A stretch of DNA of 24,908 bases from a virus (Duplodnaviria; Heunggongvirae; Uroviricota; Caudoviricetes). A program made the position numbers. The stretch is taken from positions 1 through 24,908 of IMG/VR virus record IMGVR_UViG_2563366971_000010. One strand, written 5' to 3'. Positions 3,001 to 6,000 of this stretch are shown piece by piece (the first letter of the stretch is position 1; each line of letters begins with the position of its first letter).

Positions 3001-6000
3001 TATTTCCAGTCACCAACCCACGGCTTCTCCTGAAAGTTCGTAACGCCTTTTCTCACGTAGCGATATCGCCATGTCACCGGTTCGGCTTCCAGCGATACCA
3101 GCGCGACTTTAAATGCGGTAAGTACGTTTTTAACCACATCGATTTTGAATACTATTTCATCACATACAAACGATTTATCGTCTACTACCGTTTCAATTCC
3201 GGTAATCGTGTTTTGTAGCCATTTGGTTAATTCAGCCATTTTTCATTACCGCCCTTTCGGGCGGTCTCCTGATGTTCTGAGGGTGCAGGAATCCCTCCGG
3301 TTAAGGATTAAATTTTATTTACAGAACTGAATTTAATTATTCAGATATACGTATCTGTAACCTTACGAACCTACTCACTGGATGCCTATTTCATAAAAAT
3401 AATCCAGTGGGTTTTATCGTTTTTTCCTGTTCGTTGACCGATAACAGGTTTTCTGTCGGTCAGTACCAATATCTGGCGAACAGGTATTTGCGTTTCATTC
3501 CATTTAAAAATCAGAACGCCGGATGGACGCAACACACGAAAGGCTTCTTTAAATCCCTGCCGCAAATCATCACGCCAGGTATCTTTATTCAGCCGTCCAT
3601 ATTTCTTTCCCATCCAGGCGTTATCACCAACACGCTCAAGATGCGGAGGGTCGAATATAACCATCGAAAAAGATGCGTCTGCAAATGGTAGTGCACGAAA
3701 ATCAGCTATCAGATCAGGACTGATAATCAGGCGTCGTCCATCACACAATGTGTGCTCTTCCTTTCTGATATCGCTAAATATCGCCCGGTCGTCATTCTTA
3801 TCGAACCAGAACATGCGACTGCCACAGCACATGTCGAGGATTGCTGCATGTCCGGTCACTGGCTGCCTCCTTTGCGAAGCCGTTCCGCCCATTCTTCAAG
3901 GGATTTCTCTGCATATTCACCGGACAGGCCATCAATCGGATGCGATTCATTAGCTAACTCTTCTTTTGCTGACAGAATCATGCGTGTAACGTCGAAAACT
4001 TCAGCCAAAGGCTTATTGATAAATCCGTGATTGAAAGCAGCAGCAAGACGGCTTGCGGTATAGTTAATACCCTCGTTGCGAGCCTCAGCACGTACTTCAT
4101 CGAATTTACGCACCAGATACTCAGCATTTGTTTCATTCACTTTCAGATCTCGCGGTACACATTTCCCGCGAAGAAACCCTTCCATTTCGAAAACATTCAT
4201 GCGCATTTGCGTAACTCCGATAACTCGTTAAAACGTTCCATAAACATCCCATAGGCATGGCCTGGCGACAGTGGAATAACTTTGAACATCTCTGTTGCCG
4301 GGATACCTTCCAGAACAGGCCAGAAAGAGCCATCATCAAGCCCGAGATCACGGCGTTCGGTTGCCAGCATAATGAGATCGGCATATTTCACTGGCGTGCT
4401 CATAACAGGAGGTAACCCGTATTTCTCACGGATTACGGCGTCTATTTTTTCTTCCATCCGTTTATAGTCAGGAAGAAGTCGTTTCAGTGGCGCGGGGATG
4501 TCCTGGCAATATGCTTCTGTTGCATCATGCATTAACGCTTCAAAAGCAAATTCCTGCGGCACCAGCTGGCTGCAAAGCACCGCATGCTGGGCGACACTGT
4601 AGAAGTGTGAAAGATGTCCTGCAAAGCGACAGATATTTGAAAGGGAAACTGCGATATCGTTAATCACGATGTCGTCTTTATTTATCTTGTCATAATAAAA
4701 ATGCTTCCCGGAAAAAGTTTTAATAAATGACATTTCGTTCTCCACTTTATATGCGTTGCACCGCGCTGAATTCTGCTAAAAGGAAGCTCTCACCATCCGG
4801 TGATTATTGAGTTAATTACGTTTCCATAAATGCCCCCGCAGGGGCATTTGCAGTAATGAAATCAGGCGGTGAAAGTACCAATAAAGGTTTCTACTTTGCT
4901 GTCTTTGAATTTCTCAACAAGCAGATCACGAAATTCGTTAGCCATTTCTTCCTGCATCGCTTCCAGCTGAATAATGCGCAGAACCAGTACAGGACGATCG
5001 CCAGTGATAATGCTGAGGCGTAATTTAAACGGACGTTCTTTCAGGCCTTCAAACGGAACGCATTTAAATTCAAATGCCACTGGCATAATGTCTTTGGTTT
5101 TCGCTTCGACAGACTCCATCAGGGAGCGTTTGCCGCTGAAGTCATTGTCTTCAAAATCAGCGGTCTGGTTTGCTTCAATTGTGATTTTACGGACTGCCGC
5201 AGCCGCTTTGGTTGCCTGAATGGTGTCACCATTAGCATCAAAGCCCACAAGGTAGTCGGCCCAGTCTTCAATCCATTCTGCCAGTGACTTCTGGGAGTTA
5301 CGCTCGCCATTAACAGACAACAGAGCAGAAAACGGTGCTGTCTTTTTCAGTTTGAGGGTGGCGGTGTTATCTGCGTGACCTGGTTCATCAATAGTACCCA
5401 GGTTAAGCACACTGACGGCTCGCATATTATCGGCATCGATAAAGCAGCGGGTGCCTTCATCTGCAAGATCTTTAGAATAACGGGTAAAGTCATCGATGCT
5501 GGCAGTGGAAAGCGCACCACGGAAACGGAAGCGATTTAAATTAAATTTTTCCAGATCATGAATGCGGAAATTCTCAGGCAATGCCACAGCATCGGCACCA
5601 ATCTTACTGATAATTTCATTAACACCCTGAGCAGAAATAAGGGCATGGATTTGATTAATTGCGGTTGCGTCTAAGTCCTCACTATATAAAGATATTCAGT
5701 GATGAGATAAATAATCAGTTAATTAAGAACGATATTAATGACCTGCTGCGCGGAGTTTTCCGTCAGGTTCACCGGCAAGAGTCAGTAATTGTCCCTGGTC
5801 TTCCTGCAGAATAGTCAGGCGACCACCGCGATTGACATACATCGGCGTTTCGGTGGTGTCTTCTTCGGAAATTTTCCCGCGGTTAGTCGGGCGAACATAT
5901 GAGAGTTTGTGTTTTATTTTCACACGGTTCTCATCAAACGGTTCGATTTCCAGGTTGAGCGAGACCTTACCTTTGGTTTTCGTGTTCATCACACCGGAAG

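What the first reader, a model, noticed from the sequence alone, without database searches (positions are those of the whole stretch)
3386..3859. Miniature methyltransferase-like protein in the early-left operon
The 157-aa product has a glycine-rich SAM-binding-like motif (ILDMCCGSRMF) followed about 60 residues later by DPPH, a variant of the D/N-PP-Y/F catalytic motif of amino-methyltransferases. It is too small to carry a canonical target-recognition domain. It may be a degraded gene, a subunit needing a partner, or a non-DNA methyltransferase. The prophage also carries a full Dam-type enzyme at 9941-10594.
Basis: partly seen in the sequence, partly recalled or inferred. Interest (0 to 1): 0.45.

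Follow-up and report, generated by a model that had tools for sequence, protein, structure and literature searches.

The report
Minimal phage methyltransferase without recognition domain
This is an intact, already catalogued prophage gene for an unusually small SAM-dependent methyltransferase that is widespread in temperate phages, probably modifies DNA bases, and has no experimentally established target that I could find.

Summary
Window 3386-3859 (- strand) encodes a 157-aa protein with ILDMCCGS (residues 7-14) and DPPH (70-73). It starts at a GTG 7 nt after an AGGAGG and overlaps the upstream stop codon (GTGA). It is identical to RefSeq WP_000145671.1 ('class I SAM-dependent methyltransferase') and lies in a CPS-53-like prophage, downstream of a PL-like promoter. 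It belongs to PHROG 954 ('DNA methyltransferase', E 7e-87) and occurs in about 1000 of 5426 complete E. coli genomes.

Most likely it is an early-expressed, stand-alone amino-methyltransferase acting on DNA (N6-adenine or N4-cytosine) with relaxed specificity, as an anti-restriction function. The substrate is inferred, not shown. Its conservation across phyla (55% identity with a Bacteroides phage, against 29% for the Dam-type gene of the same two genomes) is unexplained and keeps a non-DNA target open. The gene and family are already annotated; interest is modest.

The parts
3386..3859 (-). CDS of the 157-aa minimal class I SAM-dependent methyltransferase (GTG start; identical to WP_000145671.1)
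   Evidence: ORF list; PGAP annotation of the 100%-identical E. coli MS20657 locus; PHROG 954 at E 7e-87; AlphaFold pLDDT 92.6
3866..3871 (-). Shine-Dalgarno AGGAGG, 7 nt upstream of the GTG start
   Evidence: Read directly from the sequence
3818..3841 (-). Motif I, ILDMCCGS (residues 7-14): end of strand 1 plus the SAM-binding loop
   Evidence: Sequence; D9, C12 and G13 are >=90% conserved; strand 7-11 in the model
3764..3784 (-). Motif II region, AIFSDIR (residues 26-32): invariant D30 at the end of strand 2 (the usual ribose-binding acid) and invariant R32
   Evidence: Alignment A1; strand 26-30 in the model. The role of D30 is inferred from general knowledge of class I methyltransferases.
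3722..3763 (-). Variable beta-hairpin (residues 33-46). It is the least conserved segment and the only internal insertion hot spot, so it is a candidate mini recognition element.
   Evidence: Column conservation and insertion counts; strands 34-37 and 43-46. The function is inferred.
3641..3661 (-). Motif IV, VIFDPPH (residues 67-73): strand 4 followed by the invariant DPPH catalytic loop
   Evidence: Sequence; D70, P71, P72 and H73 invariant in 60 sequences; strand 64-70
3856..4206 (-). Upstream 116-aa ORF of unknown function, translationally coupled to the methyltransferase (GTGA overlap). It is not a conserved partner.
   Evidence: PHROGs 614 and 583; homologues near the methyltransferase in only 16 of 80 loci
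6439..6468 (-). PL-like promoter (TTGACA-18-TACATT) that would drive the leftward early operon: yfdP, yfdQ, yfdR, orf116, methyltransferase
   Evidence: Consensus scan; gene order. That it is the functional promoter is inferred.
9941..10594 (+). Second, unrelated methyltransferase of the prophage: Dam-family (PF05869) N6-adenine DNA methyltransferase in the early-right region
   Evidence: Pfam E 8.6e-46; PGAP name; PHROG 111

Best explanation
The gene encodes an intact, catalytically competent, stand-alone SAM-dependent amino-methyltransferase reduced to the bare catalytic core.

Proposed mechanism:
- SAM is bound by the ILDMCCGS loop after strand 1 and by D30 after strand 2.
- The invariant DPPH loop after strand 4 positions an exocyclic or amide NH2 group for methyl transfer.
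- There is no target-recognition domain.

The gene is silent in the lysogen and is transcribed from PL early after induction or infection. Its most likely substrate is DNA: N6 of adenine or N4 of cytosine in the replicating phage genome. Recognition would be relaxed or of a very short motif, possibly through the variable hairpin (residues 33-46) and the basic post-DPPH loop, and possibly as a homodimer. The role would be anti-restriction, alongside the prophage's Dam-type enzyme.

Shown: gene integrity, fold, motif placement, conservation, phage and early-module context, and the lack of a conserved neighbouring gene. Inferred: catalytic activity, DNA as substrate, relaxed specificity, and the anti-restriction role.
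For: - Foldseek PDB hits include the gamma-class DNA N6-adenine enzyme M.TaqI at E about 1e-4.
- Motifs fall at the canonical strand ends.
- Invariant residues: D30, R32, P48, D70-P71-P72-H73, E105, R108, K119, W120, P138.
- Purifying selection: dN/dS 0.14 for the closest pair, and synonymous sites saturated for nearly all more distant pairs.
- PF01555 N6_N4_Mtase is the only DNA-methylase Pfam family that recurs, in 20 of 60 members, covering the DPPH region but below threshold.
- PHROG 954 is labelled 'DNA methyltransferase'. PADLOC models labelled Type II methyltransferase and orphan methyltransferase match at E 3e-73 and 4e-50.
- Context is always the early replication or recombination module of temperate phages. 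Examples: RecT and RusA (Gordonia), SSB (pneumococcal phage), primase (Porphyromonas), helicase (Enterococcus), O-like initiator (Vibrio).
- It often sits beside other DNA methyltransferases: a C5 enzyme in Pickett, a C5-methylase-like ORF (assigned by eye from an FAGGGG motif, not scanned) in 12 of 80 loci, and PHROG 111 in LoVEphage and in this window.
- Basic pI of 9.3, family median 8.3.
- Rare on plasmids: 61 of 72,556 records, of which 2 are conjugative. It is a phage gene.
Against: - I found no experimental characterisation. Ten literature searches gave nothing on this family.
- Public names are only generic: 'class I SAM-dependent methyltransferase'.
- A methylome study of O111 strains 95JB1 and 95NR1, which carry three copies, does not list this gene among its methyltransferases. 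Every motif it detected was assigned to another enzyme. Repression in the lysogen would also explain this.
- I know of no characterised stand-alone DNA methyltransferase this small (own knowledge).
- Cross-phylum conservation is far higher than for the Dam-type DNA methyltransferase in the same pair of genomes: 55% against 29%. That is not typical of DNA methyltransferases.
Confidence: 0.5

Rival explanations
1. It is a functional amino-methyltransferase whose substrate is not DNA. The target would be a universally conserved host molecule: an rRNA or tRNA base (m2G, m6A or m4C type), a protein glutamine or N-terminus, or a nucleotide or signalling nucleotide. The phage would use it for host takeover or for counter-defence.
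For: - Conservation across phages of very different hosts is exceptional: 64.5% identity with Gordonia phage Pickett, 52% with Listeria LP-101, 55% with a Bacteroides phage. The Dam-type DNA methyltransferase of the same two genomes is only 29% identical over 77 residues. This fits a substrate that is the same in all hosts.
- Nearest PDB sequence and fold matches around motif IV include Trm11, TrmN, Trm14, RsmC, TrmM and HI0767 (RsmD-like, from memory), all RNA amino-methyltransferases.
- One family member carries an N-terminal ASCH domain (P0207).
- Here the gene lies two genes downstream of a 5'-deoxynucleotidase, YfdR.
Against: - The RNA and protein amino-methyltransferases named above rely on extra substrate-binding domains (THUMP, N-terminal domains) or on Trm112, and these are absent here (established knowledge of those families).
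- The YfdR neighbourhood is not conserved.
- PF01555 is the only DNA-methylase Pfam family that recurs, in 20 of 60 members.
- Clustering with DNA methyltransferases and replication genes favours DNA.
- High conservation could simply reflect the absence of a diversifying recognition domain, together with horizontal transfer.
Confidence: 0.3
2. It is only the catalytic subunit. It needs a partner for stability or target recognition: a host protein (for example a Trm112-like zinc-ribbon protein), a phage protein encoded elsewhere, or a second copy of itself.
For: - The AlphaFold model has only three helices and lacks the helices that normally cover one face of the sheet, which suggests an exposed interface.
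- Trm112-dependent methyltransferases (Bud23, Trm9, Trm11) recur among the fold hits.
- In some enterobacterial phages the gene is fused to an 85-aa module. That module otherwise exists as a separate gene and is also fused to Dam-type methyltransferases.
Against: - No neighbouring gene is conserved in 80 loci or in phages of five other host groups.
- The 85-aa module is absent from this window.
- The protein is predicted with high confidence as a compact monomer.
- The fold hits to Trm112 clients are generic class I similarities (TM-score 0.44-0.58).
Confidence: 0.15
3. It is a decayed or non-catalytic remnant: a pseudogene, or a SAM-binding protein without transferase activity.
For: It is small. 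His replaces the Tyr/Phe/Trp that the PROSITE N6-methyltransferase signature requires. The Pfam score is weak (24 bits). No methylation motif has been attributed to it in strains that carry it.
Against: - The length is about the same, roughly 150-165 aa, across phyla.
- DPPH, including the His, is invariant in 60 sequences.
- dN/dS is 0.14, and synonymous sites are saturated at dN 0.14-0.36.
- A complete seven-strand fold is predicted at pLDDT 92.6.
- The gene has a strong Shine-Dalgarno site and is translationally coupled.
- The exact sequence occurs on at least 1000 contigs.
Confidence: 0.04

Closest known systems
PHROG 954 ('DNA methyltransferase'), matched also by PADLOC models PDLC03288 (MTase_II) and PDLC03730 (oMTase); RefSeq WP_000145671.1 'class I SAM-dependent methyltransferase'
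   Same: This is the family itself. The match is full length (E 7e-87, 3e-73 and 4e-50), and the protein is 100% identical to the RefSeq entry.
   Different: Nothing differs. The family names are predictions, and I found no tested member.
Gamma-class N6-adenine DNA methyltransferases, e.g. M.TaqI
   Same: Same linear order of motif I, then motif II, then motif IV. Same class I fold, with a (D/N)PP-aromatic loop after strand 4. Foldseek E about 1e-4.
   Different: M.TaqI has a C-terminal DNA-recognition domain of about 170 aa and an NPPY motif (established knowledge). This protein ends with strand 7, has DPPH, and lacks several core helices. Sequence identity is only 17-19%.
Beta-class N6/N4 DNA methyltransferases (Pfam PF01555 N6_N4_Mtase), e.g. 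TTHA0409 (PDB 2zie) and M.EcoGII
   Same: The stretch from motif IV through the 'RVLkpgG' strand aligns at sequence level (2zie; PF01555 positions 2-64 in 20 of 60 members). M.EcoGII is also prophage-borne, silent in the lysogen and non-specific (PMC5778455).
   Different: The motif order is circularly permuted: in the beta class, motif IV comes before a recognition domain and motif I. All matches are below the Pfam gathering score (best single-protein score seen 19 bits, cut-off 26.7), and M.EcoGII has a putative recognition domain.
RNA amino-methyltransferases with D/NPP(Y/F): Trm11, TrmN/Trm14, RsmC, RsmD-like HI0767, TrmM
   Different: Those enzymes carry THUMP or other N-terminal RNA-binding domains, or need Trm112 (established knowledge). 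None of these is present here.
Phage Dam family PF05869 (the second methyltransferase of this prophage, 9941-10594)
   Same: Also a small phage-borne orphan amino-methyltransferase expressed from an early operon. The two co-occur in this window and in Bacteroides phage LoVEphage. Both families have members fused to the same 85-aa C-terminal module.
   Different: No detectable sequence similarity between the LoVEphage PHROG 111 protein and this protein (E 0.68). PF05869 has an NPPY-type motif (NPPYS in both proteins). It is much less conserved across phyla (29% against 55%).

Membership tests
Class I (Rossmann-like) SAM-dependent methyltransferase superfamily | Seven-stranded sheet fold with structural similarity to solved class I methyltransferases | tested here: met
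Class I (Rossmann-like) SAM-dependent methyltransferase superfamily | Glycine-containing motif I loop after strand 1 and an acidic residue at the end of strand 2 | tested here: met
   The ILDMCCGS loop follows strand 7-11. D30 ends strand 26-30 and is invariant. D9, C12 and G13 are >=90% conserved.
Class I (Rossmann-like) SAM-dependent methyltransferase superfamily | Pfam Methyltransf_11 (PF08241) at or above the gathering score | tested here: met
   24.2 bits against a cut-off of 21.2, only just above it. 58 of 60 family members match at E<=0.1.
Amino-methyltransferases with (D/N/S)PP(Y/F/W) motif IV | D/N/S-P-P-aromatic tetrapeptide directly after strand 4 | tested here: inconclusive
   DPPH sits directly after strand 64-70 and is invariant. 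However, His replaces Tyr/Phe/Trp, so the strict PROSITE PS00092 pattern, as I recall it, is not matched.
Amino-methyltransferases with (D/N/S)PP(Y/F/W) motif IV | Demonstrated methyl transfer to an exocyclic or amide nitrogen | not testable with these tools
   Needs an enzyme assay or LC-MS. No published assay was found in 10 literature searches.
Sequence-specific DNA methyltransferases (alpha, beta, gamma classes) | A target-recognition domain, either between or after the catalytic motifs | tested here: not met
   All 157 residues belong to the core fold, and strand 7 ends at residue 156. The only variable insert is a 14-residue hairpin.
Pfam PF01555 N6_N4_Mtase (beta class) | Score at or above the gathering threshold, with motif IV preceding motif I | tested here: not met
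   Best single-protein score seen was 19 bits, against a cut-off of 26.7. 20 of 60 members match only at E>=0.0012. The motif order here is I before IV.
Pfam PF05869 phage Dam | Match to the Dam profile | tested here: not met
   No match for this protein. The neighbouring gene 9941-10594 does match.
PHROG 954 | Full-length, significant match to the profile | tested here: met
   E 7.4e-87, residues 11-168 of the ATG form against profile positions 47-201 of 229.
Restriction-modification system methyltransferase | A cognate restriction endonuclease gene next to the methyltransferase | tested here: not met
   No nuclease partner in the window, no conserved neighbouring gene in 80 loci, and none in seven other phages. 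It is an orphan.
Trm112-dependent methyltransferases | An obligate Trm112-like zinc-ribbon partner | not tested
   This is only a structural resemblance. No such gene is conserved nearby. A host partner could not be examined.

The most novel reading that the evidence does not exclude
The 157-aa protein is the smallest self-sufficient nucleic-acid amino-methyltransferase. One possibility is a sequence-independent DNA adenine or cytosine N-methylase built from a helix-poor catalytic core alone. The other is an enzyme aimed at a universally conserved non-DNA host target. Either would explain why it stays 45-65% identical in phages of Proteobacteria, Firmicutes, Actinobacteria and Bacteroidota, while ordinary phage DNA methyltransferases diverge.
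Probability: 0.3. Interest if true: 0.6.

Novelty: already known. Interest (0 to 1): 0.3.

Why it matters
As a sequence feature it is ordinary. The exact protein is in RefSeq, is seen on at least 1000 contigs, and sits in phage and defence-system profile libraries as a predicted methyltransferase.

Three things are worth keeping in mind. The family appears never to have been assayed. It is about as small as a class I methyltransferase can be. Its cross-phylum conservation is much higher than that of a bona fide phage DNA methyltransferase in the same genomes.

If it proved to be a recognition-domain-free, non-specific DNA methylase, it would be a compact alternative to M.EcoGII or Hia5 for chromatin and footprinting methods, and a widespread anti-restriction device of temperate phages. 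If it methylates something other than DNA, it would be a new phage host-manipulation or counter-defence activity. A simple expression experiment would decide between these.

Tried and rejected
- Degraded gene: rejected on conservation, selection and fold.
- ATG start at 3892 (168 aa): rejected in favour of the GTG at 3859. The reasons are the Shine-Dalgarno site, the homologue N-termini and PGAP.
- Identity with YfdT/YfdS of K-12 CPS-53: rejected. The K-12 paper describes YfdS as a DUF551 protein and YfdT as having no defined motif, and it mentions no methyltransferase.
- Identity with the characterised prophage enzymes M.EcoGI/GII: rejected. Those are beta-class with DPPY and a putative recognition domain. 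The gene is also not among the methyltransferases listed for O111 strains that carry three copies.
- Conserved partner gene: searched by clustering same-strand ORFs in 80 viral loci, and none was found.
- C-terminal extension of the 248-aa forms as a hidden recognition domain: rejected. It is a fused copy of an 85-aa gene that is otherwise free-standing, and it is absent from this window.
- N-terminal extensions of larger homologues: Pfam found only sporadic domains (DUF6291, ASCH, weak HTH matches), nothing consistent.
- Plasmid leading-region anti-restriction gene: rejected, because the gene is rare on plasmids.
- The viral structure library (BFVD) gave only one family member and generic methyltransferases.
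- The AlphaFold-database fold library was not available.
- Sequence search of the PDB gave only marginal hits.
- All ten literature searches found no experimental work on the family. The Murphy et al. 2013 review of phage orphan methyltransferases is not held.
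Full report
**The observation**

The - strand of the window carries an ORF ending at 3386. It can start at an ATG at 3892 (168 aa) or a GTG at 3859 (157 aa). The GTG is preceded by AGGAGG 7 nt upstream and overlaps the TGA of the upstream 116-aa ORF in a GTGA junction (read). Homologues from Salmonella, Leclercia, Yersinia, Dickeya and Serratia begin 4-6 residues before the conserved ILDMCCG, as the GTG form does. NCBI's pipeline annotates the same 474-nt CDS in a 100%-identical E. coli locus.

ILDMCCGS occupies residues 7-14 and DPPH residues 70-73. The 'Dam-type enzyme at 9941-10594' is also real (PF05869, E 8.6e-46).

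**Genomic setting**

The window is an E. coli prophage of the CPS-53/KpLE1 kind. In strain MS20657 it lies next to the zur-dinF-lexA region.

A cI-like repressor gene (6555-7208, - strand) is flanked by two promoter-like sites with identical hexamers, TTGACA-18-TACATT. One fires leftward at 6468-6439 and one rightward at 7243-7272. Leftward of the first lie yfdP, yfdQ, yfdR (a 5'-deoxynucleotidase), the 116-aa ORF, the methyltransferase, several DUF551-type ORFs and a 3'-5' exonuclease. 'Early-left operon' is therefore a fair description. That this promoter is the functional one is inferred.

**The gene is known and common**

- The protein is identical to WP_000145671.1, 'class I SAM-dependent methyltransferase'.
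- The exact sequence is recorded on at least 1000 contigs, under generic names only.
- Related DNA is present in 1001 of 5426 complete E. coli genomes, and 855 of them cover at least 80% of the gene.
- It matches PHROG 954 'DNA methyltransferase' at E 7e-87.
- It matches two PADLOC methyltransferase models, labelled Type II and orphan, at E 3e-73 and 4e-50.
- Pfam sees only a marginal generic Methyltransf_11 match (24 bits), and NCBIfam sees nothing significant.

**Family size and spread**

A word-indexed search found 7470 homologues. An exhaustive HMMER search found 2080 representatives of 50%-identity clusters at E<=1e-3, of which 245 were at E<=1e-30.

In the phage collection, 256 genomes encode a homologue. 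Most are temperate siphoviruses, with hosts including Streptococcus, Vibrio, Acinetobacter, Porphyromonas, Listeria, Gordonia, Lactobacillus, Enterococcus, Staphylococcus and Salmonella. The gene is rare on plasmids: 61 of 72,556 records, of which only 2 are conjugative.

**Integrity**

In an alignment of 60 diverse members, D30, R32, P48, D70, P71, P72, H73, E105, R108, K119, W120 and P138 are invariant. D9, C12 and G13 are at least 90% conserved.

Against 80 viral loci, non-synonymous divergence is 0.14-0.36 while synonymous sites are saturated in nearly all pairs. The closest pair gives dN/dS 0.14. The 'degraded gene' reading is rejected.

**Structure**

AlphaFold2 with this alignment gives pLDDT 92.6 and pTM 0.88. 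The order of elements is:
- strand 7-11, then the motif I loop
- strand 26-30, ending in D30
- a hairpin (34-37 and 43-46)
- strand 64-70, followed by DPPH
- helices 82-87 and 95-109
- strand 110-121
- helix 127-131
- strands 138-144 and 150-156

Two features are unusual. Only three helices are predicted, so the helices that normally follow strands 1-3 are replaced by loops. Also, the chain ends with the last core strand, so there is no recognition domain. The only poorly conserved internal segment, and the only insertion hot spot, is the hairpin at residues 33-46.

**What does it methylate? This could not be settled in silico.**

Evidence pointing to DNA:
- PF01555 (N6/N4 DNA methylase) is the only DNA-methylase Pfam family hit repeatedly. 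It is hit by 20 of 60 members over the DPPH-to-'RVLkpgG' stretch, but always below threshold.
- A beta-class DNA methylase, 2zie, aligns over the same stretch.
- M.TaqI appears among the Foldseek hits at E about 1e-4.
- The protein is basic (pI 9.3).
- In every genome inspected, the gene lies in the early replication or recombination module. It is often next to other DNA methyltransferases.

Evidence pointing elsewhere:
- The best profile hits in the PDB around motif IV are RNA m2G methyltransferases (Trm11, and HI0767, which I take from memory to be RsmD-like).
- Conservation is abnormally high. The E. coli protein is 55% identical over its full length to the homologue in Bacteroides phage LoVEphage. 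The Dam-type methyltransferases of the same two genomes share only 29% over 77 residues. Identity with Gordonia phage Pickett is 64.5%.

That level of constraint fits a substrate common to all hosts. That substrate could be DNA without sequence recognition, or a conserved RNA or protein.

**Partner hypothesis**

I clustered same-strand ORFs from 80 viral loci. The commonest neighbour cluster occurs in only 19 loci, at varying positions. The commonest immediate upstream or downstream neighbour occurs in 8. Seven phages from other host groups likewise show no shared neighbour.

The 248-aa 'long forms' are fusions to an 85-aa module. That module mostly exists as a separate hypothetical gene (918 hits). 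It is also found at the C-terminus of long Dam-type enzymes. It is absent from this window.

A host-encoded partner or a homodimer cannot be excluded. The helix-poor model and the recurrence of Trm112-dependent enzymes among the fold hits are weak hints only.

**Literature**

Ten searches found no experimental work on this family.
- The O111 outbreak strains 95JB1 and 95NR1 carry three copies. Their methylome paper does not list this gene, and assigns every motif it detected to another enzyme. That is the expected result for a repressed early prophage gene.
- M.EcoGII, the known non-specific prophage adenine methylase, is beta-class and unrelated in architecture.
- The yfdQRST study of K-12 CPS-53 concerns neighbouring genes, not this one.

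**Verdict**

This is a real, intact, selected, recognition-domain-free amino-methyltransferase of an already catalogued but apparently unassayed phage family.

My best estimates are:
- about 0.5 that it is an early-expressed DNA N6-adenine or N4-cytosine methylase of relaxed specificity, serving anti-restriction
- about 0.3 that it has a non-DNA target
- about 0.15 that it depends on a partner, which is not exclusive of the first two
- about 0.04 that it is non-catalytic

Novelty is low because the gene and family are already annotated. Interest is modest (0.3), resting on the minimal architecture and the unexplained cross-phylum conservation.

Noticed in passing
P0009 and other 248-aa homologues (residues ~160-248); not in the window: Some enterobacterial phages fuse the mini-methyltransferase to an ~85-aa module (phrog_16025). 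That module usually exists as a free-standing hypothetical gene (918 hits). It also forms the C-terminus of long Dam-type (PHROG 111 / PADLOC PDLC03332) methyltransferases. It is therefore an accessory module shared by two unrelated phage methyltransferase families, and its function is unknown.
   Followed up: partly
window 6439-6468 (-) and 7243-7272 (+): Divergent PL- and PR-like promoters with identical hexamers (TTGACA-18-TACATT) flank the cI-like repressor gene at 6555-7208.
   Followed up: no
window 4197-4745 (-): A homologue of YfdR, a 5'-deoxynucleotidase. In K-12 CPS-53, YfdR binds DnaA, and together with yfdQ and yfdS or yfdT it inhibits replication initiation when overexpressed (PMC4776307). 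Here yfdR is followed by a different 116-aa ORF and the methyltransferase, rather than by yfdS and yfdT.
   Followed up: partly
window 2772-3239 (-) and 1842-2576 (-): Two neighbouring ORFs share a near-identical N-terminus (M..LTKWLQNTIT.IE, phrog_660) but have different C-terminal parts (DUF551 type). This looks like mosaic duplication in the early-left region.
   Followed up: no
window ~3249-3264: A GC-rich inverted repeat, ccgccctttcgggcgg, lies in the 146-bp gap between the methyltransferase stop and the next ORF's start at 3239. The consensus terminator scan did not call it, because it has no T-run.
   Followed up: no
L086 (Bacteroides phage LoVEphage) 721-3727: This phage has three small predicted methyltransferase genes within 3 kb: a PHROG 67-like fragment, PHROG 954 and PHROG 111. 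They lie about 0.5 kb downstream of a PAPS-reductase-like gene. The PHROG 954 plus PHROG 111 pairing is the same as in this E. coli prophage.
   Followed up: partly
window 3856-4206 (-): The upstream 116-aa ORF is mosaic. Residues 1-42 match PHROG 583 and residues 36-116 match PHROG 614. Its N-terminal segment recurs on longer proteins near the methyltransferase in 16 of 80 viral loci.
   Followed up: partly
viral loci set L006-L085 (118-aa ORFs; L070 and L081 match residues 1-118 only): Six of the 80 viral loci carry 118-aa truncated versions of the methyltransferase. Shorter partial entries (65-148 aa) also occur in the protein clusters, so some copies are decayed or are cut by contig ends.
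   Followed up: no
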